A stretch of DNA of 62,813 nucleotides from a virus, in IMG/VR virus record IMGVR_UViG_3300025711_000009; one strand, written 5' to 3'. Positions 1-62,813 of the stretch are shown piece by piece. Position numbers and translations under genes: made by a program. The notes below the pieces were generated by a model. The model saw nothing but the letters and a program-made list of their open reading frames with translations. It made no database searches and was not told the origin of the DNA. Every line of letters starts with the position of its first letter. Position 1 is the first letter of the stretch.

Positions 1-127
1 ACAAGGCCGCGCGCGCCGCCGCTTCCTACGTCCGACGCCAGCCGAGCGCCGCCTGATGGCCGCCTCCGCCCAGTCGGGCCACAGCATCATCGACCAGCCG
101 GCAACCCCCGCAGCGTGCGCCCAGGAT
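1..127. repeat. Terminal overlap copy 1 (identical to 62687-62813)
   Basis: Read directly: acaaggccgcgcgcgccgcc...gcgtgcgcccaggat occurs at both window ends. Confidence 0.95.
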
Positions 128-1999: not shown

Positions 2000-3532
2000 G
2001 TGACCAGCGACCACCGTTCCTGGCAGGAACGCGACGCGGAAGCCGAGCTGATCCGGGTCAAGACAGCGAACGTGGCCGCCAGCGCGGACGCGGACCGGCG
2101 CCGCCGGGAGGCCCTCGACGCCCCGAAGATTGAAGCCGCCCTGGCCAGGGCCGCGGAGATCCGGCGAGAGGCCGCCGCGAAGGCCGAGGCTGAGGAGAAG
2201 GCCAAGGCCGAAGAGAAGGAAGCCGCCGCTAAGGCCCGCGCCGAAGCGCTCGCCGCCGCGAAGGCTGAAGCCGAACGCCAGGCCGAGATCGCCCGCCGTG
2301 ACGCACGGGCCGCCAAGGCAGTGAACATCGCCGTGGTCGCCGCCCTGCTCGTGGCCCTGCCGCTGCAGCTCCGCACCTTCTGGAACCCCGACCGCTGGTG
2401 GGAAGTCGCCGTACCGTTCGTCCTCGAAGGCCTCGCCTGGGTGTTCATCCGCCTCGCCGAAGCTGCCATCCCCGCCCGCCGCATGGTGTGGCACTACATC
2501 GTCGGAGTGTTCGCCTGCTCCGCGTTCGCCGCGACGGTGAACGCCCTGGACGGGTTCATGCACGACGACATCGGCCCGATCTTCGGCATCGTCGGCGGCG
2601 TCTGCTCCATCGCCGGCCCCGGAATCAAGGTCGTGCACGAGTTCGCCGCCCGAGCCAAGGCCGGCAAGGCGACCTGGACGGAGAAGAAGATCGCCGAGGC
2701 CAACGCCGCCCAAGCGGCGGCCGAGGCTGAGGTCCGTAAGGCCGAGCTGGCCGCCCAGACCGAAGCTAAGCGCCGTGAGGCCGACGCCCGCCAGAAGGCC
2801 GAAGCGGACAAGCGCGCCGCCCACGAAGCGAAGGTCGCCGCAGACAAGGCCGCCGCCGAGGCCGCCCTTGCCGCCCAGGACGAGCAGCGCAAGAACCTCT
2901 ACCCAGGAGCCTGGCAGCAGTATGAGCTGATCCTCGCCGCCAACCCGCTCGGGTCCATCAGCCGGGACCGCGCCTGGGACGAGGCCCGCCGAGCCGCCGA
3001 TCACCCGGACGTCTGGGACCACTACCGGGTCTTGGTCCTGAACACCGTCAACGTCAAGGCGGCCGACCTGTGGGCCGACGCCTGGGCGACAGTGAAAGGG
3101 CTCCCCGTCGGTCAGACGATCGAGTCTCTGGCCGCAAAGCTGGCGGCTCGGGAGTACGTGAACCAGACCTTGGCCGAGCACATGGACGCCGCCGGATACC
3201 TGGCCGTGGAGGAACTCCTGGCGGGGATCTTCGGGGGTGGCGGCGGCGACGGCGGAACCCCCGCGAAGGGGGGGCCGAAGAAGCCTCGCGGCGGTCCATC
3301 CGAGGGCGCTGCAGGCCTTGTGAGCATTGGGCAGGAGGGGGATACGGCCCCGCGCTACAAGGACGTCGTAGAGCCCCTCTCTGAGGCCGACCTGAAGGCC
3401 GCCCGCGAGCTCCACGACGCCGACCCGGACGGCTTCTCCACCCCGGCAGTCCAGAAGCTGCTCGGTCGCTCCAGCCGCTACTCGAAGCGCGTTCGAGACG
3501 CCATCACGAACCCGAAGGAGGTAGACCAGTGA
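2000..3532 (+). CDS. Membrane protein with multi-TM core flanked by Ala/Glu/Lys coiled coils (DUF2637/spread-protein-like)
   Basis: 510 aa. KAEAEEKAKAEEKEAAAKA-type repeats lie on both sides of the hydrophobic core WWEVAVPFVLEGLAWVFIRLAEAAI...GIVGGVCSIAGPG. Sits directly upstream of the FtsK-like gene. Confidence 0.8.
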   Translation: MTSDHRSWQERDAEAELIRVKTANVAASADADRRRREALDAPKIEAALARAAEIRREAAAKAEAEEKAKAEEKEAAAKARAEALAAAKAEAERQAEIARRDARAAKAVNIAVVAALLVALPLQLRTFWNPDRWWEVAVPFVLEGLAWVFIRLAEAAIPARRMVWHYIVGVFACSAFAATVNALDGFMHDDIGPIFGIVGGVCSIAGPGIKVVHEFAARAKAGKATWTEKKIAEANAAQAAAEAEVRKAELAAQTEAKRREADARQKAEADKRAAHEAKVAADKAAAEAALAAQDEQRKNLYPGAWQQYELILAANPLGSISRDRAWDEARRAADHPDVWDHYRVLVLNTVNVKAADLWADAWATVKGLPVGQTIESLAAKLAAREYVNQTLAEHMDAAGYLAVEELLAGIFGGGGGDGGTPAKGGPKKPRGGPSEGAAGLVSIGQEGDTAPRYKDVVEPLSEADLKAARELHDADPDGFSTPAVQKLLGRSSRYSKRVRDAITNPKEVDQ

Positions 3533-5544
3533 GCACCGCCCCCGAGTACCCGCGGCTGCAGCTCGTCAAAGAACAGCCGGCCCCCCTCGAGGGCGTCGTC
3601 ATCGAGAAGGCCAGCCGACCCGCATGGCTGGAGGCCGCAGTCGATCACGTCAAGGCGAACAGCGGCTACGCCCCGCTCGTCGGCCGCGGCTACCGGCGGC
3701 TCGGAGCCCACTGGCTCGACCGCTACCACGACGACTACCCCGCGATGATCGAGACCGCCCGGCGCGAACTCCGCGAAGCGCCCGCCGCGAAGCAGCGCGA
3801 ACTCAAGACCCTCGTCCGCGAGCAGCGGGCCGAATACCGGCGCCACAGACTCCTCCACGCCGGAGTCACCGGCGCCTGGACCTTCGCAGGCGGAGCCGGC
3901 ATCGCAGCCGGCACCCTCACCGGCGGTCTCTGGGTCGACCTCGCCGCCGGGCTCGGCGCCTACCTCTACGGCATCTGGCAGGGAGCCGGCGACGACCCGC
4001 AGCCCCCTACGATCACCACCCCCGGACCGGTCGTCCCGATCCTCGGCGGGCCGACTGGCCCCGCCGATGACGAACCCGAACTCCGACTCGCCCTCGCCCA
4101 GCTCGGCTTCCCCAACGTCACCATCATCGACAACCCGCCCACGAACCCGGACGGCACCCGCACCATCACCTTCGACCTCGGCGGCACCGGCACCGTGACT
4201 GACCTCCGCAAGAAGACCGAGGGTCTCGCCGCCGCCCTCGGCCGCGACCTCACCATGGTCGACATCGACAAAGTGCCCGGGAACGCCGGTCGAGCCAGCC
4301 TCTGGACCGCCAGCGCAGACCCCTTCGAAACGCCGCGGCCGTCCCCGTTGCTCGCCCAGCGCGGAGCCATCGACTCCTGGCGTTACGGCGTCCCCGTCGC
4401 CTACGGCAAGCGCGGCAACACGATCAACCTGCCGCTCCTCAACCAGAACTTCGTCATCGCAGGGAAGACCAGGTCAGGCAAGGGAGTCGGCGCCTCCAAC
4501 CTCGCTGTCGGCACGGCCATGGACCCGTGGGTCAACCTCCGAATCGTCGCCGGAAAGGAGAACGGCGAGTGGGACGCCTACGCCAAGGCGGGCGTCGCCG
4601 CGACCTACTTCAAGCCCAACCCCGAACGACTCCTCGCCCTCCTGCAGGCGCTGCTTGCCGACAAGAAGCGCCGGGAGCGAGAGCTCGGCAAGCTCGGCAA
4701 GTCCAAGCTCATCCACGACCTTCGCCCGCAGATCGGCGGAGTCGAACTGCTGATCATCGACGAGCTTGCGACGTACACCCGGCCCGGGAAGCCGCTGCGC
4801 GACGAGATCCTCGAAGCCCTCATCGAGTACTCCGCCGTTGCCGCAGCAGCAGGAGAGCTCTGCGCCCTCATCACGCAGTACCCCGAGGTCGACGTCGTCC
4901 CGCAGGCCCTGAGCATGAACTGCGGCGGCAAATGGGCCATGCTCGTCGAGAACGCCACCCAGTCCAACGCCATCCTCGGAGCCGGTCAGGCCGGCGCCGG
5001 ACGGGACGCCTCGAAGTTCGACCCACCCCGGCCGGGACTGGGCTGGCTGGTCAACCCGTTCGCCGGGATCACCGACCTGGCCCGCTCCTTCGACCTGGAC
5101 GAAGACGAGCGCGGCGAGATCAGCCTGCTGATGCAGCGGGCAGCGGAGCAGCGGAGCATGCTCGGCCGTCTGTCCGGCCAGTGGGACGACCCGATCGAGA
5201 AGCACCTGCTGAACGCGACCGGCCTGTCCTCGGCCGCCGGCGGTCCGAAGAACGACGGCGTGCCCGGCCGTTCCGTCACGCAGCTGACGGGTGAGCAGCG
5301 GCTCCAGCTCGACGCCCTGCGTGGGGCGCTGGCCGCCATGGACCAGCTCGGCCGGGATGTCGCCACCCTCGACGAGATGACGGAAATCATCGGGGGCGGC
5401 ATGACCCGGGACCGGCTGAGCGAGCTGTTGCGCGCTGGAGGGGCGGGCGGCGCCGACAAGGTGAAGATCGACGACAAGTGGACCCGCGGCGGCTACCAGC
5501 GGGCCGACATCGCGGATGCCGAGAGGTTCCTGAGCGGATCCTGA
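3529..5544 (+). CDS. traB: FtsK/SpoIIIE-family dsDNA translocase, TraB-like
   Basis: 671 aa. N-terminal hydrophobic segment, Walker A FVIAGKTRSGKGVGASN, Walker B ELLIIDEL. GTGA overlap with the upstream gene. Confidence 0.9.
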   Translation: MSTAPEYPRLQLVKEQPAPLEGVVIEKASRPAWLEAAVDHVKANSGYAPLVGRGYRRLGAHWLDRYHDDYPAMIETARRELREAPAAKQRELKTLVREQRAEYRRHRLLHAGVTGAWTFAGGAGIAAGTLTGGLWVDLAAGLGAYLYGIWQGAGDDPQPPTITTPGPVVPILGGPTGPADDEPELRLALAQLGFPNVTIIDNPPTNPDGTRTITFDLGGTGTVTDLRKKTEGLAAALGRDLTMVDIDKVPGNAGRASLWTASADPFETPRPSPLLAQRGAIDSWRYGVPVAYGKRGNTINLPLLNQNFVIAGKTRSGKGVGASNLAVGTAMDPWVNLRIVAGKENGEWDAYAKAGVAATYFKPNPERLLALLQALLADKKRRERELGKLGKSKLIHDLRPQIGGVELLIIDELATYTRPGKPLRDEILEALIEYSAVAAAAGELCALITQYPEVDVVPQALSMNCGGKWAMLVENATQSNAILGAGQAGAGRDASKFDPPRPGLGWLVNPFAGITDLARSFDLDEDERGEISLLMQRAAEQRSMLGRLSGQWDDPIEKHLLNATGLSSAAGGPKNDGVPGRSVTQLTGEQRLQLDALRGALAAMDQLGRDVATLDEMTEIIGGGMTRDRLSELLRAGGAGGADKVKIDDKWTRGGYQRADIADAERFLSGS

Positions 5545-39725: not shown

Positions 39726-40481
39726 TTACGAGCCGCCACCGACACCCGGAACTGGCCGCCCGCCTTCCCACAGGGCGTCTACGTGCTGCGCGAACCGGTC
39801 GAAGAGGCCGTCGGCCTGTACCCGGCGCAGGTGCAGCATCGGCGACTCGTGCCCGAGGAGGTTCGCGATGTGCGGCGTCACCAGCATCTCGTCGTCGAAG
39901 ATGAACGCACTGAGCGCGATGTGATCGTCCGAGAAGCGCGCCTCGAGGCCCGGCAGCGGGCCCATCTGCTGCAGCTGGGCCAACGTCATCCGGATGCGCG
40001 TGCCGACCGTCAGCGGGTTGTTCTCGACCTGCTCGCGCTTGCGGGTGATCTCCGACTCCGGATCTCCGACTAGGAAGCGGACCTGGACGCCGGCCTCCGC
40101 CTTGGCGCGTAGCCGCTCGGCGGCCTTCGGCTGCTCCTGCCAGATGAAGTAGTTCGTGTACCCGGCGAACACGATCCGCCGCTTCGCCCCGTCGATCAGC
40201 GACGACCACACGGTGGGCGGGCAGGTGTTCCGGTAGGCGTAGGTACCGGCGACCTCCCGGTCCGTACCGGTCTTGATCGCATCCCTGACGGCCTTCGGCC
40301 AGAGCATTTCCGCACTCACTCCCAACACCTCGGCGACCGCGGCCCGAGCCTCAGCCCGCGGCACGCGCGCCTCTGAAGCCAGCCACCTGTCGACCGTCTT
40401 CCCCGCGACGCCGACCTTACGGGCCAGGCTTGAGCGGGTCATCCCGGCCCCGCTCATGGCGTCTCTGAGTGCGACGTTCAC
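39726..40481 (-). CDS. XRE-family HTH regulator with large C-terminal domain (DUF5919-like)
   Basis: GTG start after GGGGGA. HTH MTRSSLARKVGVAGKTVDRWL. About 180 aa of C-terminal domain. Confidence 0.85.
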   Translation of the reverse strand: MNVALRDAMSGAGMTRSSLARKVGVAGKTVDRWLASEARVPRAEARAAVAEVLGVSAEMLWPKAVRDAIKTGTDREVAGTYAYRNTCPPTVWSSLIDGAKRRIVFAGYTNYFIWQEQPKAAERLRAKAEAGVQVRFLVGDPESEITRKREQVENNPLTVGTRIRMTLAQLQQMGPLPGLEARFSDDHIALSAFIFDDEMLVTPHIANLLGHESPMLHLRRVQADGLFDRFAQHVDALWEGGRPVPGVGGGS

Positions 40482-40592
40482 GAATCCCCCCAGGGCGGTC
40501 TGCACGGTGTACGGCGACCGTATCCGGGGAGCGTCCCGGGTGTCCCGGAAAGGACGGTAGAAGCGTCCCCGCGGGCCGGGCAGAGTACGGGC

Positions 40593-40793
40593 ATGAGCAA
40601 GCCGCCATCTTCTCCCCTTCCCCCGCTCCCGCCGGTCGCCGACCTGTCGGAGCAGCAAGTCCGCGGGACCGCCTGCGTGTACTGCGGCGTCCACCTCGGG
40701 CCCACGGCTGTCGATCTCGGCGAGCGTAAGGCCGGCCGGGCGGGCGACAGCGTCTCCTGGTTGCCGCGGGCCTGCCGACTGCCGCACCCCTAA
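40593..40793 (+). CDS. Small Pro/Cys-containing protein (66 aa)
   Basis: Divergent from the XRE gene; GC3 about 80 percent by eye. Confidence 0.5.
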   Translation: MSKPPSSPLPPLPPVADLSEQQVRGTACVYCGVHLGPTAVDLGERKAGRAGDSVSWLPRACRLPHP

Positions 40794-40796
40794 GCT

Positions 40797-40834
40797 CCCG
40801 CCCCTCCCGCTGCGGCGGCTACGGGAGGGGCGGG
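40797..40834. terminator. 13-bp-stem hairpin
   Basis: CCCGCCCCTCCCG-N12-CGGGAGGGGCGGG, with no T-tract. Confidence 0.5.
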
Positions 40835-40898
40835 TACCAGCCAAGTCCCGAGTTACTGAATGGTTGACTCCGGTTCAACTCGATCGTAGGTTCGACCC

Positions 40899-41734: not shown

Positions 41735-43045
41735 TCAGTGTGCCTCAGATGGGAGAACAATGGGAGGCGCTACCTTCCTCGCCCGCTCCGTCTTCTCCCA
41801 CCGCTTCTGCAGCACGTCGATGACCTGCTGCTCCATCGCAGGCGTCACGTCAGAGTAGACGCCCCGGACCCCCTGCAGAATGTGACCGAGCCTCTCCTCG
41901 ATAGCCACCGCCGGCACTCCCATCTCCTCAAGCATGGGCGAGTGTGCGTGCCTCATCAGGTGGATGCGGCGGCCCGCGAACGACGGCACCTTGGGCATCT
42001 TGTCCCTGGCGTAGCGCCCAGTCCGCTGGTCAGAGCCATCTCGCACGGGCTTCCAGTAGTACGTGTGGAAGTCGGTGGTCAGCAGAGGGCCGCCGCTGAT
42101 TGCCGGGAACAGCCACTCGGAATCATGACTGTCGAGCAACTGCTGATGCAGTGCTGCGAGAAAGGGTGGAATTACCAAGCTCCTCTCGGACCCGTACTTT
42201 GGAAGCGCCAGGACGGGCACGCCCTTCTCGTCCGGGCGGGCCGGGTCCTTGCGGTACTTGTGCTGCCACTGCACCCGGATGACCGGCATCGGCTTCTTGC
42301 CGCAGTAGCGCAGGAGGGCTTTCTCCCGGCGCTTTCGGTCTTCGTCACACTCGGGCCAGTTGGGGCCGACGAACTCTCGCCTAAGTCCGTACATCTCCCC
42401 TACACGCATCCCGGTGTAGGCCTTGGTCAGCATGAAGACATAGCCCGTAAGGCCCCAGACCTGGCGCGCATTGTCGGCCAGCTGATGTAGGTCTGCTGTC
42501 GGAACGGTTTCCTTCTCTTCACGCTCCGGACGCACGTACCGGCCGCGGCGCCTGTTCTCCTTGGGGACTGGAGACTCCGGGATCAGCGCCGGCTTGTGGG
42601 ATGCCGCATCATCCATGATCATACAGAAGAGGACTTTGAGATCGCGCACATAGTTCGCGGAGTACTTCTCTTTGAGGCTCTTCATCCAGAGCTGGTAACC
42701 AAGCGTCGTGATTGCATTGACCGGCTCCTCGCCCCACTTGGGCAGGATCTGTGCCCTCAACCGCTTTCGATAGAGGTGCACGGACGTCGGATCCAGGTCG
42801 CGCGACTTGAGCCAGAGGTTGGCCCAATGCTTGAACAGGATCGATCCGTCGGCCTTTACGACGAGGCGCCCGTTGCGGGCGTCCGACTCGCGGTCCAGGC
42901 CGTAGTTCAGGGCCGCCTCTTCATCCCAGTCCTCGCTGGGCATGCCTGACTTGTAGCCGTAGATCTTTCTACCGGTGTCGGGGTTGACCCGCCCGGTGTC
43001 CCACTTGACGCGGAGGCTGTTGCCCCGCCATTCCGTCCATGGCAT
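41735..43045 (-). CDS. int: Tyrosine integrase
   Basis: 436 aa. TGMRVGEM (Arg I), HLMRHAH (HxxR) and LGHILQGVRGVYSDV (His/Tyr). Confidence 0.95.
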   Translation of the reverse strand: MPWTEWRGNSLRVKWDTGRVNPDTGRKIYGYKSGMPSEDWDEEAALNYGLDRESDARNGRLVVKADGSILFKHWANLWLKSRDLDPTSVHLYRKRLRAQILPKWGEEPVNAITTLGYQLWMKSLKEKYSANYVRDLKVLFCMIMDDAASHKPALIPESPVPKENRRRGRYVRPEREEKETVPTADLHQLADNARQVWGLTGYVFMLTKAYTGMRVGEMYGLRREFVGPNWPECDEDRKRREKALLRYCGKKPMPVIRVQWQHKYRKDPARPDEKGVPVLALPKYGSERSLVIPPFLAALHQQLLDSHDSEWLFPAISGGPLLTTDFHTYYWKPVRDGSDQRTGRYARDKMPKVPSFAGRRIHLMRHAHSPMLEEMGVPAVAIEERLGHILQGVRGVYSDVTPAMEQQVIDVLQKRWEKTERARKVAPPIVLPSEAH

Positions 43046-43463
43046 GAGGACCCCTTGCGGTGGTGTTGCGGGTTCCCGGCTGGCACCCCTGCCACCGGGT
43101 CTCCGCACCTACTGGTCAGGCGCTGCTCTGCCCCACCGGGCAGCCGCCGCATCCCTCACAGTCTCCTCCGCTACGCCTCACGGTCTCACGCATGGACTGC
43201 CGGGCGGCGGCGTCCTTCGTGATCGTGGGAGGCGCCACGCAGACCATTCTCCCATCGGCTGATCCGGACCAACCCGCAAACGTCGGTCCGATGTCCATGA
43301 GTAGCAGGTGTCTGCGCACACCGATTCCCCCCTTCCGGGACTGGGAATCCCCCAAGGTGATGCTTCGACTCTCCCACGTGTGGGGCTGGTTGGAACCTGT
43401 GTGAGCCAGATTGACTGTCACATTTTCAACATCGCGAAAGGTTGTACGACAAAGGGCTGAGTT

Positions 43464-43886
43464 TCAGAGGATCCCGCGCTCGCGGAGCTCCTCCATGACT
43501 CGGCGGTTCAGCTCGAGGATCTGATCCCCGGTCATGTCCCCCTTCGTCGCGAGGGCGGCGCTCTGCACGGCGTCGCCGAAGACGCGCTCGAGCTCCCGCT
43601 TGGGGATCCGGGAGATCTGGACGACCTCACCCCCCTCTTGCACAACCTCCACGGCGATGGCGTCGCCGCCTTGAAGCACCGCCACGCAGCCGCCGGACGC
43701 CCACTGGAGGGCGCGATCGACGGCCGCGTAGGTGGTGTCGCGCACCTTCAGGCCGGCTTCCACCCGCTTCCAGGTGTCCTTGCTGATACCTGCGAGCTTG
43801 GCGGCCGGCTCGATGCCCAGCCTGAGCTCCGTGCGGCGCTTGCGGACGGCTGTCGCAAGGGCCATGAGGTCGCGGTCCATAGGCAC
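43464..43886 (-). CDS. CI-like immunity repressor (HTH)
   Basis: 140 aa. IEPAAKLAGISKDTWKRVEAG. Divergent from the cro-like gene. Confidence 0.85.
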   Translation of the reverse strand: MPMDRDLMALATAVRKRRTELRLGIEPAAKLAGISKDTWKRVEAGLKVRDTTYAAVDRALQWASGGCVAVLQGGDAIAVEVVQEGGEVVQISRIPKRELERVFGDAVQSAALATKGDMTGDQILELNRRVMEELRERGIL

Positions 43887-56812: not shown

Positions 56813-57019
56813 ATGCACAAGCCCATCCCGTTCTACGCCGAGGCCGGCACCAGCGGCTGCCCCCACGGTACTGACGGCGACCACCCCCGGCACGCACCCG
56901 GCGGCGAGATCTGGATCTGCCTCGACACCCCTACCGGCGACGGCTGCGACACCCACACCGACGACTACGGCTACGGCGTCATGTGGACCGACTGCCCTGA
57001 GCGGCAGGCCGAGTCGTGA
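56813..57019 (+). CDS. Hypothetical protein (68 aa)
   Basis: GAGGAG RBS. Confidence 0.6.
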   Translation: MHKPIPFYAEAGTSGCPHGTDGDHPRHAPGGEIWICLDTPTGDGCDTHTDDYGYGVMWTDCPERQAES

Positions 57020-57366
57020 CCGCGCCCGCCCTCGACGAGCGCGAGCAGCGCGTCCTCGAACTGTCAGCCGCCGGGTTTACCTACGAGCACATCGCCCGCG
57101 AACTCGGCACAGGGCGGCCGTTCACGGCGAAGCTCGCTTCCCAGCTCCTGAAGAAGCTCGGCGCCCGATCGATGCCGCAGGCGGTCCTGCTCGCCTGTCG
57201 GGCCGGCCTCCTCGACGGCCGCCCTCAGCGCCACGGCGATCACGCCGGCTACGAAGCGCACCGGCGCCGCGGCGAGGACCCGAAGCTCTGCGAGGCGTGT
57301 TCGGCCGGGGAGCGGGAGCACAAGGCGGCCCTCAGGGCCCGCCAAAGGCTCTCAGCGCCCGCGTAA
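57016..57366 (+). CDS. LuxR-type HTH regulator
   Basis: EREQRVLELSAAGFTYEHIARELG... Confidence 0.8.
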   Translation: MTAPALDEREQRVLELSAAGFTYEHIARELGTGRPFTAKLASQLLKKLGARSMPQAVLLACRAGLLDGRPQRHGDHAGYEAHRRRGEDPKLCEACSAGEREHKAALRARQRLSAPA

Positions 57367-59231: not shown

Positions 59232-59834
59232 GTGAACGACGCCACCAGCACCTGCGCGATCTGCCGAAACCCGTCCAGCACCCGCGTTCACCCCGGCTGC
59301 GAGGAACGCCTCGACGGCAACCTCGGCGCCCTCCCCGGCCTGTACCGGGAACTCGAAGAGCACCTCGCCCCCAGCCGCCGTGGCGAAAGCGGACGCTCCG
59401 GCAGCCGCACCGCACCCCTGCCGGTCAACGAACGAGTCCTCGACCTCCGGGCCCGCGGCGGCATCGAAGGCGTCGTCACCACCTGGGAACGCGACGCCCG
59501 GGAAACCCTCGGCTGGGAGCCGGCACCGTTCCGCGGCGACGTACAGCAGACCATCGATGGCGCCGTCACCTTCCTCCGCCTGCAGGTCTCCTGGTTCTGC
59601 GACGCCCACGATGCCGTCTTCGAACTCGCCCAGGACATACGCCGGGTCCGCTCCGAATGCGAGGCGATCATCGGCGGCGACAAGCCGCCCCGCCGGATCC
59701 CCGTCACCTGCCCGTGCGGAACCGTCCTCCGCATCACCCTCGACACCCCCGGCGCCCGCTGCCCCGGATGCGAAGCCCAGTACGGGCATGCAGAGGTACT
59801 GCGGCTGCCCATGGCGGAGAGGTCCGCGGCATGA
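59232..59834 (+). CDS. Hypothetical Cys-containing protein (200 aa)
   Basis: GAGGAG RBS. CAIC...C at the N-terminus and CPCG...CPGC at the C-terminus. Confidence 0.7.
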   Translation: MNDATSTCAICRNPSSTRVHPGCEERLDGNLGALPGLYRELEEHLAPSRRGESGRSGSRTAPLPVNERVLDLRARGGIEGVVTTWERDARETLGWEPAPFRGDVQQTIDGAVTFLRLQVSWFCDAHDAVFELAQDIRRVRSECEAIIGGDKPPRRIPVTCPCGTVLRITLDTPGARCPGCEAQYGHAEVLRLPMAERSAA

Positions 59835-59835
59835 C

Positions 59836-59867
59836 GAAGCCCCCACCGCTACGGCGGTGGGGGCTTC
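59836..59867. terminator. Bidirectional terminator hairpin between convergent operons
   Basis: GAAGCCCCCACCGC-tacg-GCGGTGGGGGCTTC. Confidence 0.75.
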
Positions 59868-59879
59868 GTGCGTCCGGGG

Positions 59880-60548
59880 TCAGGCGGCGTCGGAGAGTTG
59901 GAGCTGAAGAGCTGCCAGGAGATCGGCGAGTTGGTTTGCGGTCATCGACTCACGCAGGATCGCAGCCGCCTCCTCCGCGCGCCCAACAGGAATGTGCGCA
60001 GTCCTGTCTTCGGCGGGGAGAACTATGTACCCCTTGGCGCGACGCTCAATGACGTATCCGTCGGTGACTAGATCGAGTAGTGCCCGCTGTACGGCTGCCC
60101 CAGTGACCCCAAACTGCTCCTTGAGATGCGCCTGTTTGGGCAGGGCGGTCCCGACGGGAAGCGCACCCGAGTCGATCTGGTTGCGGAGGTAGACGTTTAA
60201 TCCGCCGGCTTGGGGAGCTTGCCCCGCACCTCCGACCGCGTCGATCTTCGTTCGCTTCCGGGCACGAACCGCCACTGCCGCGTGCACTGAATGATCGGCA
60301 TGGAGATTGTGGCGCGCGTTGAACCTGGGCCGCTCCGTCTTGATCGCAGCTTTCTCTGCCTGCTCGGCCTCATTGCGGGTGTCGAACCAGACCAGCGTGC
60401 GCCGCACCTGAAGGGGATACCAGGTGTCCGCCGCATCCCGTGCGTGCTGCCCTTGGCGGGAGTCGGGGATGTATGCGATACCGACGTACAGCAGCACGTC
60501 ATCGGCGTCGAAGAACCTGTAGAGAGCGGTTCGGCCCTGGTGAGTCAC
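59880..60548 (-). CDS. GIY-YIG nuclease domain fused to GntR-type winged HTH
   Basis: ALYRFF..LLYVGIA...EAEKAAIKTERPRFN, then LPKQAHLKEQFGVTGAAVQRALLDLVTDGYV. GTGA overlap with the upstream gene. Confidence 0.8.
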   Translation of the reverse strand: MTHQGRTALYRFFDADDVLLYVGIAYIPDSRQGQHARDAADTWYPLQVRRTLVWFDTRNEAEQAEKAAIKTERPRFNARHNLHADHSVHAAVAVRARKRTKIDAVGGAGQAPQAGGLNVYLRNQIDSGALPVGTALPKQAHLKEQFGVTGAAVQRALLDLVTDGYVIERRAKGYIVLPAEDRTAHIPVGRAEEAAAILRESMTANQLADLLAALQLQLSDAA

Positions 60549-60967
60549 TGAGCAGCCCCGTCCTCGGCGAGAACCCCGGCCAGGTATTCCTGCACAGGCC
60601 CGAAGAGCCCCCACGGCACGTAGGTCGGGATCTCTTCCAGACGAATCCAGGCGACCTCGGCCAGCTCCTCCTCGTCGGCGACTCGGGCCTCCCCGCCGAC
60701 GACCTCGCACGCCACGTAGGACATGTGTCGGCCGGTCTGCGGGTGCACCCGCTCACCCAGGGGCTTGATCGCCTTCACCTCCAGGTCGACCTCCTCGGAG
60801 GTCTCCCGCACCGCGGCCTGCTCCGGCGTCTCGCCATCCTCGATGCCGCCGCCCGGGAACGCCCAGAGCAGCCTTCCCTCCCGCTCCCGCCGCCTGATCA
60901 TCAGGACACGTCCAGCGTCCGTAATGATCGCCGTCGAGATTCCCTGCTCGGTCGTCGTCTCGGTCAT
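60545..60967 (-). CDS. Nudix hydrolase
   Basis: Near-canonical Nudix box GGIEDGETPEQAAVRETSEEVDL; ATGA overlap. Confidence 0.9.
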   Translation of the reverse strand: MTETTTEQGISTAIITDAGRVLMIRRREREGRLLWAFPGGGIEDGETPEQAAVRETSEEVDLEVKAIKPLGERVHPQTGRHMSYVACEVVGGEARVADEEELAEVAWIRLEEIPTYVPWGLFGPVQEYLAGVLAEDGAAQ

Positions 60968-61635
60968 GCCAGCGCCTCCAGAACGGGCGGATAGATGTGC
61001 TGCTCGGGAATGAAGCGGGTCAGTTCGGCGCGCGGGATCCACGCGACATCACTGTTCTCATTGGGATCGCGGTTCTCTGCCTCGCCCATTAGGTACTCGG
61101 CGAGGTGGTACTCGATGAGCACCCCCGTCTTCGGGTGGATTCGCTCACCGAGGTGCCGCCGGATTGCACACCGCACGCCGGTCTCGGCGCGGGTTTCCTC
61201 GACGGCGACTACGGACGCCGTTCGTCCCGGCTTCACGGTGCCGGCCGGGAACTGCCAACTGAGCGAGTCGTCACCTCTTCGGCAGACAAGGAGGACGTCC
61301 AGCCCGCGCATTACGACGGCCACGGCCACCCGGAATGTCTGCGCTTGAGGTTCAGCTGCAGGCGGTCGAGCGAGGAGTCGGAATCGGTGGCGGTCGCTTT
61401 CGTCGGCCCTCTTGTAGGCGAGGTCAAGAAGGCGCTGCATGTCTGAGCGTGGCCGACCCTCCTGGTCGGCGTGCCACTTGCCTACCGTGCGAACTGAGAC
61501 CTCCACGTACTCGGCGAATTCCTCTTGTGTCATGCGGAGTGCCTCCTGAAGGAGGCATGCCCGCCGACCGTCCCATGAGTCGATCACATCCACTGTCGGG
61601 CCCCAGAAGCGTCGCTGGCGGGGAGTTGCTGACAA
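60964..61635 (-). CDS. XRE HTH fused to Nudix-fold domain with degenerate Nudix box
   Basis: MTQEEFAEYVEVSVRTVGKW, then WQFPAGTVKPGRTASVVAVEETRAETGV. The start (TTG at 61635) is uncertain. Confidence 0.8.
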   Translation of the reverse strand: MSATPRQRRFWGPTVDVIDSWDGRRACLLQEALRMTQEEFAEYVEVSVRTVGKWHADQEGRPRSDMQRLLDLAYKRADESDRHRFRLLARPPAAEPQAQTFRVAVAVVMRGLDVLLVCRRGDDSLSWQFPAGTVKPGRTASVVAVEETRAETGVRCAIRRHLGERIHPKTGVLIEYHLAEYLMGEAENRDPNENSDVAWIPRAELTRFIPEQHIYPPVLEALA

Positions 61636-61748
61636 CGTGCTGACCCAATGCCGACAGCGCGCCGACGTGGGCGGAAGAGTGCTGGAGTGTGCTGACGCCG
61701 CTCATGGATTGGCCGGCCCCTGAGGGCTTGACTCGAAGCCATGAACAG

Positions 61749-61982
61749 TTACTTCGCTGGCGAGCCACTGCTCGGGTCCGACCAAGGTCCGACCTCGGGG
61801 CGCTCGGGCTGCTTGGCGCCGGGCTCCCTCATGTACCACCGCATGAGATCGCGGATCACCCGGCTACGCGGGGGGCGCCCTGCCTCGCCGTGAACTGAGC
61901 GCGTCGCCTTGTCGAAGCGATCCCACTCGCTCTTCGTCATGCGGATCTTCGCAGTGAAGTCCTCGTCAGTCTCAGCACTCAT
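61749..61982 (-). CDS. Ribbon-helix-helix-like DNA-binding protein
   Basis: 77 aa; N-terminal AKIRMTKSEWDRFDKA (beta-strand then helix pattern). Adjacent to the repeat array. Confidence 0.7.
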   Translation of the reverse strand: MSAETDEDFTAKIRMTKSEWDRFDKATRSVHGEAGRPPRSRVIRDLMRWYMREPGAKQPERPEVGPWSDPSSGSPAK

Positions 61983-62001
61983 ATCAAGAGGTTAGTGCTT
62001 C

Positions 62002-62104
62002 GTGGCTACGACCTGCAAGATTCCAGCCATCTGGGTTGTGGCTACAAAAAGTCTCCGCATCGGCTTGCTTCGTAGCCACAAACACCCTAGCTTTGTGGCT
62101 ACAA
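62002..62104. promoter_or_regulatory. Four GTGGCTAC/GTAGCCAC operator-like sites in divergent promoter region
   Basis: cGTGGCTACg (62002), TTGTGGCTACAA (62036), cGTAGCCACAAa (62072, inverted), TTGTGGCTACAA (62093). Confidence 0.6.
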
Positions 62105-62194
62105 GGCGACTTCGGAAACGAAGCAGCCCCGCCCGGTGCGTCAACACCAGACGGGGCCTTGGCCGCGCCCCCTTCATCACAAGGGAGTACAACC

Positions 62195-62566
62195 ATGAGC
62201 ACCACTGTATCCGCTTTCACCAGCGGCTCTAGCGTTCCCCGCTCCATCATTGCCCAGCCCGCCCTTCGCCTGCTGCCGGGACAGCGGCCGAGCCTCGACT
62301 ACGTCCTCGACGCCCCGCTCGCCGACATGCTGTCCGAGCTGCATGTCGAGGTCATCACCTCCGAGATCACCGACGCTGAGTTCTTCGGCTGCGTGGTGGT
62401 CCGCGGGTCTCGGATCGTCGTGATGCTGTCGCCGAACCTCAGCGAGTACGAGACGGACTTCTTCACCCGCTACCTGACGGCGCAGGCGTACAAGCTGGAA
62501 ATGACTCCGCTGCCGACGCCGTTCGAGGTCGAGCTCAGCTCGATGCTGGAAGGGGTGCCCGCATGA
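62195..62566 (+). CDS. Hypothetical protein (123 aa), first gene of plasmid-like operon
   Basis: AAGGGAG RBS; high GC3. Confidence 0.7.
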   Translation: MSTTVSAFTSGSSVPRSIIAQPALRLLPGQRPSLDYVLDAPLADMLSELHVEVITSEITDAEFFGCVVVRGSRIVVMLSPNLSEYETDFFTRYLTAQAYKLEMTPLPTPFEVELSSMLEGVPA

Positions 62567-62742
62567 GCGCCTCCGCCCCGCAGGCCACCACCCAGCCCAC
62601 GCCGGCCCGGCGTTTGATCGCCGCGCCCAGCTCCGACCCGTCGATGGACGAGGCTCTGGCCCGCGTCCGCCGGATCGAGGCCCTCGACAAGGCCGCGCGC
62701 GCCGCCGCTTCCTACGTCCGACGCCAGCCGAGCGCCGCCTGA
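62563..62742 (+). CDS. Hypothetical protein (59 aa)
   Basis: ATGA overlap. Runs into the terminal overlap region. Confidence 0.55.
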   Translation: MSASAPQATTQPTPARRLIAAPSSDPSMDEALARVRRIEALDKAARAAASYVRRQPSAA

Positions 62743-62813
62743 TGGCCGCCTCCGCCCAGTCGGGCCACAGCATCATCGACCAGCCGGCAACCCCCGCAGC
62801 GTGCGCCCAGGAT
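62687..62813. repeat. Terminal overlap copy 2 (identical to 1-127)
   Basis: Read directly. Confidence 0.95.

What the first reader, a model, noticed from the sequence alone, without database searches (positions are those of the whole stretch)
59880..61635. Tightly coupled minus-strand operon XRE-Nudix(degenerate) / Nudix(active) / GIY-YIG-GntR: candidate nucleotide-signal sensing defence or anti-defence module
Three ORFs are joined by 4-nt overlaps (ATGA at 60964-60967, GTGA at 60545-60548). They run opposite to the lytic genes. They are bounded by a bidirectional terminator (59836-59867) on one side and an RHH gene on the other, so they are probably expressed from the prophage. Gene A has an XRE HTH followed by a Nudix fold. 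Its box, GTVKPGRTASVVAVEETRAETGV, lacks the first Glu, the Arg and one Glu of GX5EX7REUXEEXGU. That makes it likely a ligand sensor, reminiscent of NrtR but with the domain order reversed. Gene B is a stand-alone Nudix with a near-canonical box (GGIEDGETPEQAAVRETSEEVDL). Gene C fuses a GIY-YIG nuclease motif set (ALYRFF, YVGIA, conserved Glu/Asn region) to a GntR winged HTH. I do not recognise this sensor + pyrophosphatase + DNA-targeted nuclease combination as a named system. It could sense or degrade ADP-ribose- or NAD-derived or other nucleotide signals: protecting the lysogen, countering host signalling immunity, or serving as the kor-type regulator of the transfer genes.
Basis: inference. 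Interest (0 to 1): 0.8.

Follow-up and report, generated by a model that had tools for sequence, protein, structure and literature searches.

The report
Phage HTH–pseudo-Nudix/Nudix switch plus nuclease cargo
A temperate Streptomyces-type phage carries a very widespread but unstudied two-gene cassette, a DNA-binding regulator fused to a dead copy of a Nudix enzyme next to the live enzyme; it probably works as a nucleotide-sensing switch, and the nuclease gene behind it is optional cargo.

Summary
Three minus-strand ORFs are joined by ATGA and GTGA overlaps and have the stated domains: A is HTH plus a degenerate Nudix, B is a canonical Nudix, and C is GIY-YIG plus a GntR winged helix. The trio is not a conserved system. 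A and B are an obligate pair: B follows A in 159 of 160 loci, with a 4-nt overlap in 152 of 158. The pair occurs in at least 236 actinomycete species genomes and at least 101 IMG/VR contigs, in prophages and in relaxase-type ICEs. The Nudix domain of A is a paralogue of B. It never has Glu at box positions 7 or 19 (0 of 159), whereas B is always canonical (158 of 158). Hexamer repeats upstream of A change together with its recognition helix, so A is probably an autoregulator. In other bacteria A and B are fused into one protein. The same pseudo-Nudix/Nudix tandem is also fused to TIR, SIR2, HD-CE, LmuA-like and ShosA-like domains. C keeps all its catalytic residues but follows B in only about 7% of loci; its usual neighbour is a GntR-UTRA regulator. 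Best reading: A and B form a nucleotide-responsive transcriptional switch, and C is accessory nuclease cargo transcribed under it. The ligand and regulon are unknown.

The parts
59836..59867 (.). Perfect GC-rich hairpin between the convergent + strand gene (59232-59834) and gene C. It is a likely bidirectional terminator but has no T-tract.
   Evidence: sequence; dG -44.3 kcal/mol, z -6.5, 0 of 200 shuffles as stable
59880..60548 (-). Gene C, 222 aa, with a GTG start that overlaps the stop of B. It has a GIY-YIG nuclease domain (aa 6-80, nt 60309-60533), a GntR winged helix (aa 117-177, nt 60018-60200) and two C-terminal helices in the YtrA style. It is accessory cargo.
   Evidence: The catalytic set Y10, Y21, G23, R31, H35, E65 and N77 is invariant in 22 homologues. 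The best PDB sequence hit for the winged helix is 1V4R, deposited as 'Transcriptional Repressor'. The GIY-YIG domain matches UvrC 1yd6 (TMt 0.65).
60545..60967 (-). Gene B, 140 aa, a stand-alone Nudix hydrolase. Its box is canonical (G40-L62, nt 60782-60850; E46, R54, E55, E58, E59), with only G22 replaced by D.
   Evidence: E7, R15, E16, E19 and E20 are conserved in 158 of 158 B homologues.
60964..61593 (-). Gene A, 209 aa from the GTG at 61593 (the ORF runs on to a TTG at 61635). It has an N-terminal five-helix HTH domain (aa ~9-75; recognition helix aa 34-42, VRTVGKWH) and a C-terminal pseudo-Nudix domain (aa ~86-209). The degenerate box is G118-V140, nt 61174-61242.
61626..61644 (-). Promoter-proximal pair of candidate operators for A (GTCAGCAC gttg TCAGCAA, 11-nt spacing).
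61679..61696 (-). Distal pair of candidate operators for A (GTCAGCAC ac TCCAGCAC, 10-nt spacing).
   Evidence: YCAGCAM occurs 4 times in 72 bp against 0.057 expected.
61702..61734 (-). Conserved boxes upstream of A: GAGTCAA (61728-61734), a 20-nt spacer here (21 nt as counted for the relatives) and CCATGA (61702-61707). They look promoter-like or are a binding site for an unknown factor. The arrangement is shared by the prophage-type relatives.
   Evidence: The box, spacer and NATGA arrangement occurs in 22 loci, and 20 of them have exactly 21 nt between GAGTCAA and NATGA.
61749..61982 (-). A 77-aa gene upstream of A on the same strand, RHH-like by sequence pattern only. It is a separable module and is not part of the conserved cassette.
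   Evidence: A homologue occurs in only 1 of 80 genome loci (L051).
61996..62107 (.). Four copies of a 12-14-nt operator-like repeat (TTCGTGGCTACGA / TTGTGGCTACAA, in both orientations). They lie in the divergent intergenic region between the RHH-like gene and the + strand operon that starts at 62195.
   Evidence: They travel with the RHH-like gene (L051 has TGTAGCTACA three times plus the homologue), not with A or C.

Best explanation
The region is a lysogeny-strand regulatory island of a temperate actinomycete siphovirus. Its core is a two-gene cassette.

Gene A is a transcription factor. Its N-terminal HTH binds short arrays of hexamers spaced 10-11 bp apart, just upstream of its own gene, so it autoregulates. 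This step is inferred from the way the repeats change together with the recognition helix. Its C-terminal domain is a paralogue of gene B that keeps B's pocket residues but has lost two of the metal-binding glutamates.

Gene B is translationally coupled to A and is the catalytically intact Nudix pyrophosphohydrolase. The two Nudix domains act as one unit. This is shown by their obligate adjacency and by natural A-B fusion proteins.

Inferred mechanism: a nucleoside-diphosphate-X ligand is read by the pseudo-Nudix/Nudix pair and changes A's DNA binding, while B hydrolyses the ligand and resets the switch. The NAD+/ADP-ribose family of compounds is suggested only by the recurrent TIR and SIR2 fusion partners of the tandem; the ligand itself is unknown. 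The cassette would then let the phage (or, in relatives, an ICE) couple gene expression to a host nucleotide state. This is analogous to NrtR and to KorSA/Pif of pSAM2.

Gene C is not part of the cassette. It is a catalytically competent GIY-YIG nuclease fused to a repressor-type GntR winged helix. It sits in the variable cargo slot downstream of B and is co-transcribed here from A's promoter. It is most likely a sequence-directed nuclease (homing or exclusion type) that may also repress transcription.
For: Pairing: B follows A in 79 of 80 genome loci (the one exception is a truncated contig) and in 80 of 80 IMG/VR loci. A 4-nt overlap joins them in 152 of 158 loci.

Paralogy: A's Nudix domain and B are 35-38% identical over the whole domain. 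They share 24 family-invariant residues outside and inside the box, including GxRxHPxT, Y, GxA, D, E and W.

Division of labour: A has Glu at box position 7 in 0 of 159 loci and at position 19 in 0 of 159, but keeps E16 and E20 in 159 of 159. B has E7, R15, E16, E19 and E20 in 158 of 158.

DNA binding: the five-helix HTH domain is modelled with pLDDT around 90. Two to six hexamers, mostly 10-11 nt apart, lie 40-100 nt upstream of A in most of the 84 loci examined. Their sequence tracks the recognition helix. RTVA[AGSTN]W goes with RNTGCA in about 68 of 70 loci, RTI[ST]RW goes with GACAY in all 10 loci, and RTVGKW goes with YCAGCA-type sites in three of four loci: the window (4 sites), L037 (2) and L010 (1). 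In the window the sites occur 4 times in 72 bp against 0.057 expected.

Fusions: HTH-pseudoNudix-Nudix single polypeptides exist (P0162, seen on 4 contigs in an ICE context; also P0163, P0165, P0174, P0175, P0184).

Portable module: the same tandem, with a degenerate first box and a canonical second box, is fused to other N-terminal domains. Among 42 long representatives these are TIR (8), HD-CE (5), SIR2 (2) and kinase (2). Single examples carry a DprA domain matching PADLOC ShosA (106 bits), an LmuA-like domain (239 bits) and an alpha/beta-hydrolase domain.

Slot logic: in related phages the position beside C is taken by other HTH regulators with a second domain: GntR-UTRA, or XRE with an unknown domain.

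C as cargo. C's catalytic residues are invariant.

Literature: Pif (Nudix) and KorSA keep pSAM2 integrated, and xre-nud-mdp clusters occur in AICEs (PMC2440964, PMC3218068). An HTH-Nudix gene on a Streptomyces ICE was noted as possibly cI-like (PMC9513070). Nudix-HTH one-component sensors are described in PMC2330246 and PMC9503650.
Against: No ligand, regulon or phenotype is known, and NCBIfam gives no equivalog for A or B. The helix/repeat relationship comprises only three classes, which follow phylogeny, so there are few independent events. The HTH hit in Pfam is below the gathering score. A keeps two box glutamates and might still be a weak enzyme rather than a pure sensor. The phage has a separate integrase-proximal XRE repressor candidate (43464-43886), so A is not obviously the master lysogeny repressor. 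The effector fusions could mean that the tandem is itself an enzymatic effector (for example ADPR removal) rather than a sensor. Homology of B to Pif could not be tested.
Confidence: 0.55

Rival explanations
1. A, B and C form one three-component defence or anti-defence system, in which A senses a nucleotide signal, B degrades it and C is the DNA-cleaving effector.
For: The three genes are co-oriented and overlap in the window. The same order, with a GIY-YIG gene of C's type directly after B, recurs in divergent loci: full fusions in L037, L054, L173 and L244, a tblastn match to C in L033, and the GIY-YIG part alone in L171 and L192. C's catalytic residues are intact. Relatives of the Nudix tandem are fused to defence-type effector domains. 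If A controls the operon, C's expression would depend on the ligand.
Against: A GIY-YIG gene of C's type follows B in only about 7% of 160 A-B loci. Most GIY-YIG-winged-helix fusions sit beside GntR-UTRA regulators with no Nudix genes nearby. The slot after B holds unrelated cargo elsewhere: a 102-aa protein, T5orf172, Bro-N, or nothing in ICE-type loci. PADLOC finds no system.
Confidence: 0.1
2. A-B is a Pif-like immunity or exclusion module. B hydrolyses a host or element-derived nucleotide so that a cell already carrying the element does not trigger, or does not accept, a second copy. A merely regulates B.
For: Pif is a Nudix protein whose motif is required for pSAM2 conjugal immunity, and it acts together with the regulator KorSA. 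Most AICEs carry a Nudix gene together with a GntR or XRE regulator (PMC2440964, PMC3218068). A-B occurs in relaxase/VirD4-type ICEs as well as in prophages. It lies on the lysogeny strand.
Against: The mechanism of Pif is itself unknown. Sequence relatedness of B to Pif could not be tested because the pSAM2 record and the primary papers are not held. This reading does not explain why a degenerate paralogue fused to an HTH is strictly conserved.
Confidence: 0.2
3. B is a counter-defence or NAD-economy enzyme. It would destroy ADPR-derived immune signals, or ADPR itself, and A would be its regulator.
For: The tandem recurs fused to TIR and SIR2, which are NAD-consuming domains. Phage Nudix proteins are discussed in NAD/ADPr conflicts (PMC9503650).
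Against: The genes lie on the strand opposite to nearly all phage genes and look autoregulated, which suggests expression in the lysogen rather than early in infection. The cassette is equally conserved in ICEs. There is no match to known anti-defence families and no substrate-level assignment.
Confidence: 0.1
4. A sub-hypothesis about gene C only, compatible with the best explanation for A-B. C is a free-standing GIY-YIG homing endonuclease, a selfish mobile gene. It has landed in the intergenic slot after a conserved gene and has no functional tie to A-B.
For: Its distribution at the same site relative to B is patchy, and its C-terminal DNA-binding part varies: none, a winged helix, a winged helix with extensions, or full GntR-UTRA. 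The architecture is an N-terminal GIY-YIG domain plus a C-terminal DNA-binding domain, and the catalytic residues are intact. The nearest phage matches are small genes annotated as GIY-YIG endonucleases in mycobacteriophages.
Against: Copies at the shared site are only 30-54% identical, which suggests old associations rather than recent homing. Winged-helix fusions lie beside GntR-UTRA regulators in 19 of 37 cases, against 5 of 43 for GIY-YIG genes without the winged helix. This points to a link with regulators rather than with a cleavage target.
Confidence: 0.3

Closest known systems
NrtR (Nudix-related transcriptional regulators of NAD metabolism)
   Same: It is a one-component regulator in which a Nudix-fold domain with a degenerate catalytic box serves as the effector-binding domain of a DNA-binding protein. 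It autorepresses, and its ligand is a Nudix-type nucleotide, ADP-ribose (PMC2330246, PMC6800001).
   Different: NrtR has the Nudix domain at the N-terminus and a winged helix at the C-terminus. Here an XRE-type five-helix HTH is N-terminal. NrtR controls NAD genes on chromosomes. Here the gene is on phages and ICEs and is always paired with, or fused to, an active paralogue. Foldseek returns generic Nudix enzymes, and no entry described as NrtR is among the 50 listed.
KorSA (GntR) and Pif (Nudix) of pSAM2, and the xre-nud-mdp clusters of AICEs
   Same: They are on actinomycete mobile elements. An HTH regulator works with a Nudix hydrolase whose motif is needed for function. They keep the element quiescent or immune (PMC2440964, PMC3218068).
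   Different: The regulator and the Nudix are separate, unrelated proteins, and no pseudo-Nudix is described. The elements are conjugative, whereas this one is a siphovirus. Sequence relationship of B to Pif or Nud was not tested.
HTH-Nudix gene noted on Streptomyces ICE01 (Choufa et al. 2022, PMC9513070)
   Same: It has the same domain architecture on a Streptomyces ICE. The authors suggested a cI-like repressor role. It probably matches the ICE-type A-B loci found here (L048-L090).
   Different: The paper mentions it only in one sentence ('data not shown'). It gives no partner Nudix, no operators, no distribution and no link to phages.
Sensor domains shared between immune effectors and transcription factors (CARF/SAVED, WYL; own knowledge and PMC9503650)
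   Same: One ligand-binding module is attached either to effector domains (TIR, HD, nucleases) or to an HTH. Some CARF domains degrade their own ligand to reset the system, which parallels a pseudo-enzyme paired with an active enzyme.
   Different: The fold and chemistry differ (Nudix). No ligand is known. The tandem pseudo-Nudix/Nudix arrangement is not described as a sensor in any paper found with these tools.
GIY-YIG homing endonucleases such as I-TevI and the T4 Seg proteins (own knowledge)
   Same: They have an N-terminal GIY-YIG catalytic domain joined by a linker to a C-terminal sequence-specific DNA-binding domain. They are phage-borne and patchily distributed. I-TevI also acts as an autorepressor.
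   Different: Here the DNA-binding part is a GntR/YtrA-type winged helix, and in some relatives a full GntR-UTRA regulator (L045). The gene lies in a lysogeny-strand regulatory island, usually beside another GntR regulator.
GntR-family repressors (the best PDB sequence hit is 1V4R, which I recall as the Streptomyces plasmid repressor TraR; the Kor link is also own knowledge)
   Same: C's winged helix is most similar in sequence to 1V4R (E 1e-5).
   Different: C carries a nuclease domain. There is no UTRA or FCD effector domain. The FtsK-like gene is found in A-B loci with and without a C-type gene, so the two do not track each other. The GTGGCTAC repeats do not travel with C.

Membership tests
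Nudix hydrolase superfamily (gene B) | Nudix fold and box GX5EX7REUXEEXGU with the catalytic Glu and Arg residues | tested here: met
   Pfam NUDIX at 83.7 bits against a cutoff of 21.1. The box is G40-L62 with E46, R54, E55, E58 and E59; only G22 is replaced by D. All five residues are conserved in 158 of 158 homologues.
Nudix hydrolase superfamily (gene A, as an active enzyme) | A complete catalytic box | tested here: not met
   The fold is present (Pfam 57.1 bits; Foldseek E 3.5e-9 to DR1025). However, box position 7 is never Glu (0 of 159), position 19 is never Glu (0 of 159), and R15 is present in only 63 of 159.
A specific Nudix subfamily or substrate class for B (MutT, NudC, ADPRase, RppH and others) | Score above an NCBIfam equivalog cutoff | tested here: not met
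   The best match is PRK08999 at 51.9 bits against a cutoff of 245. MutT scores 48 against 148. All hits are below their cutoffs.
NrtR family | N-terminal Nudix-like domain followed by a C-terminal winged helix | tested here: not met
   The order is reversed and the HTH is XRE-type.
NrtR family | Closest structural relatives are NrtR proteins, and the regulon is NAD metabolism | tested here: not met
   No entry described as NrtR is among the 50 Foldseek matches listed. The neighbours are phage or ICE genes.
NrtR family | ADP-ribose releases the protein from DNA | not testable with these tools
   This needs binding assays.
XRE/Cro-type HTH regulators (N-terminal domain of gene A) | A significant match to an HTH_3 or HTH_31 profile | tested here: inconclusive
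   HTH_3 scores 17.4 bits against a cutoff of 23. The AF2 model gives a confident five-helix bundle. phrog_7950 'transcriptional repressor' matches at 6.7e-5. Fused relatives have clear HTH_3 hits.
XRE/Cro-type HTH regulators (N-terminal domain of gene A) | Specific operator sites near its own promoter | tested here: met
   Hexamer arrays upstream of A change together with the recognition helix in three classes across about 84 loci. This evidence is computational only.
Pif-type conjugal immunity factor (pSAM2) | A Nudix protein with an intact motif, encoded on an actinomycete mobile element together with an HTH regulator | tested here: met
   PMC2440964.
Pif-type conjugal immunity factor (pSAM2) | Sequence homology to Pif, and blocking of redundant transfer when present in the recipient | not testable with these tools
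   The pSAM2 record is not in the collections. Sezonov 2000 is not held, and Possoz 2003 was not looked up.
GIY-YIG nuclease superfamily (gene C) | Catalytic residues: Tyr of GIY, Tyr of YIG, Arg, His, Glu and Asn | tested here: met
   Y10, Y21, G23, R31, H35, E65 and N77 are invariant in 22 homologues. Pfam GIY-YIG scores 23.6 against a cutoff of 22.6. phrog_3312 matches at 4e-18.
GIY-YIG nuclease superfamily (gene C) | GIY-YIG fold | tested here: met
   The AF2 model matches the UvrC N-terminal domain 1yd6 with TMt 0.65 and rmsd 2.3.
GntR family (gene C) | N-terminal-type winged helix matching PF00392 | tested here: met
   42.1 bits against a cutoff of 27. Foldseek matches YvoA, YtrA and AraR DNA-binding domains.
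GntR family (gene C) | A ligand-binding effector domain (UTRA, FCD or similar) after the winged helix | tested here: not met
   Only two helices follow the winged helix, as in YtrA-type proteins. Some relatives do carry UTRA (L045).
Free-standing homing endonuclease (gene C) | Patchy presence at a fixed site next to a conserved gene | tested here: met
   A GIY-YIG gene of C's type lies directly after B in about 7% of loci, and other cargo fills the site elsewhere.
Free-standing homing endonuclease (gene C) | Cleaves the endonuclease-free allele and spreads in co-infection | not testable with these tools
   This needs cleavage and co-infection assays.
Known anti-phage defence systems (PADLOC-DB v2) | Matches to the component set of a named system | tested here: not met
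   The only matches are PDC-S07, a generic single-Nudix candidate, for A and B, and a weak AbiEi hit (E 0.0068) for C. PDC-S07 is reported in 99% of Enterobacter genomes (PMC12851794), so the hit is not informative.

The most novel reading that the evidence does not exclude
The A-B cassette is the transcription-factor form of a so far unrecognised sensor module: a catalytically dead Nudix domain paired with a live one. In other bacteria this module is wired to TIR, SIR2, HD-CE, Lamassu-LmuA-like and ShosA-like effector domains. It would bind an infection- or NAD-related nucleotide, and the live half would clear the nucleotide to reset the system. Hundreds of actinomycete prophages and ICEs would use it to read the host's immune or nucleotide state and switch genes, here including a repressor-guided GIY-YIG nuclease.
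Probability: 0.3. Interest if true: 0.8.

Novelty: new variant of a known kind. Interest (0 to 1): 0.6.

Why it matters
Nudix genes next to regulators have been noted on actinomycete mobile elements for twenty years (Pif, nud), without a mechanism. This analysis gives a concrete, testable architecture: an autoregulated HTH-pseudo-enzyme that is always coupled, and sometimes fused, to its active paralogue, with predicted operators. It also shows that the same tandem is attached to classic immune effector domains in other phyla. If the pair senses a nucleotide, it would be a new sensor class shared by mobile-element regulation and bacterial immunity. It would also offer a way to find the long-sought signal behind Pif-type immunity. 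The GIY-YIG-GntR fusions are a separate, uncharacterised family of nucleases built on repressor DNA-binding domains.

Tried and rejected
- DNA searches of the region against phage and plasmid collections found only short, generic Nudix matches.
- A tblastn search with A against cultured phages gave one weak hit, in a Microcystis phage. A search against plasmids found nothing close. The phage lineage is uncultured: the portal protein is at most 41% identical to that of any cultured phage.
- The pSAM2 record and the KorSA paper could not be fetched.
- The idea that the GTGGCTAC repeats are operators for C's GntR domain was rejected. They are absent from eight of the ten loci held at that point, six of which carry a C homologue, and occur once (L007) among C-bearing loci. 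They do co-occur with the RHH-like gene in L051, which lacks C.
- The idea that C is a Kor-type repressor of the FtsK-like gene was rejected.
- The idea that A is a true NrtR homologue was rejected.
- NCBIfam gave no substrate assignment.
- The sigma-70 promoter scan found nothing in the island, so the GAGTCAA/CCATGA boxes remain unexplained.
- The RHH fold could not be verified.
- The PADLOC PDC-S07 hits were discounted as generic.
- A literature search for GIY-YIG/GntR fusions found nothing relevant.


Full report
**What the window is.** The window has 68.5% G+C. Its last 127 nt repeat its first 127 nt, so it is a circularly closed assembly of 62,686 bp. It encodes a large terminase, a portal protein, a major head protein, a 1397-aa tape measure protein, a tyrosine integrase (41735-43108, minus strand), DnaN and DnaB. 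It is therefore a complete temperate siphovirus genome. The finding's own homologues are mostly from Streptomyces. No cultured phage is close: the portal protein is at most 41% identical to any. An integrase-proximal XRE gene (43464-43886, minus) lies divergent from an HTH_17 gene (44254, plus). This pair looks like the ordinary lysogeny switch. The finding lies elsewhere. It is a minus-strand island between the end of the replication block and the operon that runs across the assembly junction to a 510-aa protein and an FtsK/SpoIIIE-like protein (2000-5544).

**Observation.** The three ORFs, the ATGA and GTGA overlaps, the quoted motifs and the hairpin are all present. Pfam, PHROGs and two AlphaFold models confirm every domain call. 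Two corrections apply.
- Homologues of A are about 209 aa long and begin M/V-D-V-[IV]. The start is therefore the GTG at 61593, not the TTG at 61635.
- The upstream 77-aa gene is RHH-like only by sequence pattern.

**A and B are an obligate pair; C is not part of it.**
- A scan of one genome per species found 236 genomes with a relative of A, in Streptomyces, Kitasatospora, Catenulispora and Amycolatopsis.
- In the 80 loci kept from that scan, a B homologue follows A in 79. The one exception is a contig that ends there.
- In 80 IMG/VR loci a B homologue follows A in all 80.
- The stop of A and the start of B overlap by 4 nt in 152 of 158 loci.
- A GIY-YIG gene of C's type follows B in 5 of 80 genome loci and 5-6 of 80 viral loci, with only 30-55% identity to C. 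Not all of these carry the winged helix.
- Looking from the other side, 37 of 80 viral loci with a GIY-YIG gene of C's type are winged-helix fusions. Nineteen of the 37 lie beside a separate GntR-UTRA regulator, and only 2 lie behind A-B. Homologues P0002, P0005, P0011 and P0015 show the same picture.
- The slot downstream of B holds other cargo in relatives: a 102-aa protein, T5orf172 or Bro-N. In ICE-type loci it holds nothing.
- The window has no GntR-UTRA gene.

**What A and B are.**
- The Nudix domain of A is a paralogue of B: 35-38% identity over the whole domain.
- The two families share 24 invariant residues, including GxRxHPxT, Y, GxA, D, E and W outside the box.
- Across 159 A proteins, box position 7 is never Glu, position 19 is never Glu, and Arg15 is present in 63. 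E16 and E20 are invariant.
- Across 158 B proteins, E7, R15, E16, E19 and E20 are all invariant.
- The split into a dead copy and a live copy is therefore a fixed property of the family.
- B cannot be assigned a substrate. All NCBIfam equivalogs score below their cutoffs, and the PDB matches are generic MutT, Ap4A-hydrolase, NudC or RppH-like enzymes.

**A binds DNA upstream of itself (inferred).**
- Whatever the orientation of the gene upstream, at least about 100-150 nt of non-coding DNA usually precedes A.
- In the prophage-type loci this DNA contains a GAGTCAA box, a spacer of about 21 nt, a CCATGA box and then short hexamer arrays, mostly 10-11 nt apart.
- The hexamer changes together with the recognition helix of A. 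RTVA[AGSTN]W goes with RNTGCA in about 68 of 70 loci, RTI[ST]RW goes with GACAY in all 10 loci, and RTVGKW goes with YCAGCA-type sites in three of four loci (window, L037, L010).
- The window has four sites at 61626-61644 and 61679-61696, against 0.057 expected.
- There are only three classes and they follow phylogeny, so this supports autoregulation but does not prove it.

**The RHH-like module is separate.** The four GTGGCTAC repeats at 61996-62107 recur as TGTAGCTACA, three times, only in L051. L051 is the one locus with a homologue of the RHH-like gene, and it lacks C. The repeats are absent from most loci with C homologues and occur once in L007. They are therefore most likely the RHH-like protein's operators, not operators for C or A.

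**Two kinds of host element.** Prophage-type loci share the 510-aa protein, the FtsK-like protein and the DUF7341-like neighbours of the window. A second group (L048-L090) is syntenic with an NDK-like gene, a TPR protein and a methyltransferase on one side. On the other side it has a MobA/VirD2 relaxase, a NikA-like protein, DUF2637 and DUF3631, which marks it as an ICE. This matches the single sentence in Choufa et al. 2022 about an HTH-Nudix gene on Streptomyces ICE01 (PMC9513070).

**Fusions.** A profile of A was searched against 1.84 billion representative proteins. It found 3643 hits, 79 of them at E ≤ 1e-30.
- About 30 of the best 150 hits contain two Nudix stretches.
- Some are A-B fusions with an HTH: P0162, P0163, P0165, P0174, P0175 and P0184. 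P0162 is seen on four contigs, in a context with VirD4, DUF2637, a small GntR gene and NDK.
- Others carry the same tandem, with a degenerate first box (including the K4-P5 signature in some) and a canonical second box, behind other domains. Among 42 long representatives these domains are TIR (8), HD-CE (5), SIR2 (2) and protein kinase (2). Single proteins carry a DprA domain matching PADLOC ShosA (106 bits), an LmuA-like domain (239 bits), TIR-TM (96 bits) and an alpha/beta hydrolase. Two proteins (P0185, P0191) have only a short hydrophobic N-terminal segment that reads like a membrane helix.
- The two Nudix halves therefore act as one portable unit that is attached either to an HTH or to effector domains typical of bacterial immunity.
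It cannot distinguish a sensor role from an enzymatic one.
- PADLOC's PDC-S07 hits are not informative. The candidate is a generic single Nudix reported in 99% of Enterobacter genomes.

**Gene C.**
- The GIY-YIG catalytic set (Y10, Y21, G23, R31, H35, E65, N77) is invariant in 22 homologues.
- The model superposes on the UvrC N-terminal domain.
- The winged helix is GntR-type. Its best PDB sequence hit is 1V4R, which I recall as the Streptomyces plasmid repressor TraR. Two helices follow it, as in YtrA-type proteins.
- Relatives range from GIY-YIG alone to GIY-YIG fused to a full GntR-UTRA regulator (L045, 328 aa).
- C is thus a nuclease built on a repressor-type DNA-binding domain. It sits in a lysogeny-strand cargo slot and is co-transcribed here with A-B.
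- A homing-type or exclusion-type nuclease, possibly also a repressor (as is known for I-TevI, from my own knowledge), is the most economical reading. No target could be identified.

[quoted passage not shown] It is not a member of that family. The domain order and HTH class differ, and the closest structures are generic Nudix enzymes. In ecology it resembles KorSA/Pif of pSAM2 and the xre-nud-mdp clusters of AICEs (PMC2440964, PMC3218068), but homology to Pif could not be tested. No paper in the held library describes the pseudo-Nudix/Nudix pair, its operators, its fusions or the GIY-YIG-GntR family.

**Verdict.** The finding is best restated in two parts.
- A widespread, uncharacterised cassette of an HTH-pseudo-Nudix protein plus an active Nudix enzyme, found on actinomycete prophages and ICEs. 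It is probably a ligand-responsive autoregulated switch whose sensor/enzyme tandem is shared with candidate immune proteins.
- An optional GIY-YIG-GntR nuclease as cargo.

It is a new variant of known kinds (Nudix-sensor regulators and Pif-type modules), of moderate to high interest. The ligand, the regulon and the phenotype are all untested.

Noticed in passing
window 1-127 and 62687-62813: The last 127 nt are identical to the first 127 nt. The contig is therefore a circularly closed assembly of a 62,686-bp phage genome, and the + strand operon that starts at 62195 continues at window position 1.
   Followed up: yes
window 2000-5544 (+): A 510-aa protein with no family match is followed by a 671-aa FtsK/SpoIIIE-like protein (phrog_1358, 9.6e-18), in the operon divergent from the island. 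The pair is conserved in many related prophages. It recalls the Tra proteins of Streptomyces plasmids, but its role in a siphovirus is unknown.
   Followed up: partly
window 61996-62107; L051 6550-6652: Four GTGGCTAC-type repeats lie in the divergent promoter region. The only relative with a homologue of the RHH-like gene (L051) has three TGTAGCTACA repeats and a similar upstream hairpin. This suggests a separable repressor-plus-operator module.
   Followed up: partly
window 61702-61734 (-); 22 related loci: Conserved boxes GAGTCAA, about 21 nt and (C)CATGA lie upstream of gene A, often preceded by CATG. They are conserved whichever way the upstream gene points. They do not match a sigma-70 promoter, and their function is unexplained.
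   Followed up: partly
L067 6072-6614 (-); L253 7381-7875 (-): In ICE-type contexts the A-B cassette (or the A-B fusion) sits next to a nucleoside-diphosphate-kinase-like gene. In L067 this gene lies divergent from A and is followed by a TPR protein and a methyltransferase. This is a recurrent pairing of NDK and Nudix on mobile elements.
   Followed up: partly
P0203, P0210, P0218, P0219, P0233, P0245, P0195, P0212, P0242, P0220, P0186, P0205: These single proteins combine TIR, HD-CE, LmuA-like, DprA/ShosA-like or alpha/beta-hydrolase domains with a degenerate-plus-canonical Nudix tandem. Many have the low-G+C amino-acid make-up expected outside actinomycetes, though their organisms are not known. 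They are possible uncharacterised single-gene defence proteins. P0210 stands alone between UvrD/MutS-like genes and an HTH_3 gene.
   Followed up: partly
L045 8578-9564; L094 and L099 (310 aa): The GIY-YIG domain is fused to a full-length GntR-UTRA (HutC-type) regulator. Other relatives carry only the winged helix or no DNA-binding part at all. The series suggests repeated domain shuffling between nucleases and repressors.
   Followed up: partly
L253 5429-5836: A small (135-aa) GntR protein lies directly upstream of, and co-oriented with, the A-B fusion gene on an ICE-like contig with VirD4/TraG. This echoes the KorSA-Pif pairing.
   Followed up: no
window 62125-62158 (-): A 15-bp-stem hairpin followed by a T-rich tail lies inside the divergent intergenic region upstream of the RHH-like gene. 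A similar hairpin occurs at the same relative place in L051 (6490-6525). Its role is unknown.
   Followed up: no
window 39726-40844 (-), 43464-43886 (-), 57016-57366 (+): The phage has further regulators: an HTH_31 plus DUF5919 protein (372 aa), an integrase-proximal HTH_31 protein (a likely CI-type repressor) and a GerE/LuxR-type protein. The A-B island is therefore a second regulatory node, not the only one.
   Followed up: partly
L010 10380-11923; L005 7192-7833; L014, L045, L051, L087: Bro-N and T5orf172 (GIY-YIG-like) genes occupy the same cargo region downstream of B in relatives. The slot seems to collect DNA-binding and nuclease-type genes.
   Followed up: no
L007 8319-8552; L008 3344-3577: A 77-aa gene with a Pfam Acb5 hit lies about 2 kb from the C homologue in two related elements.
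   Followed up: no
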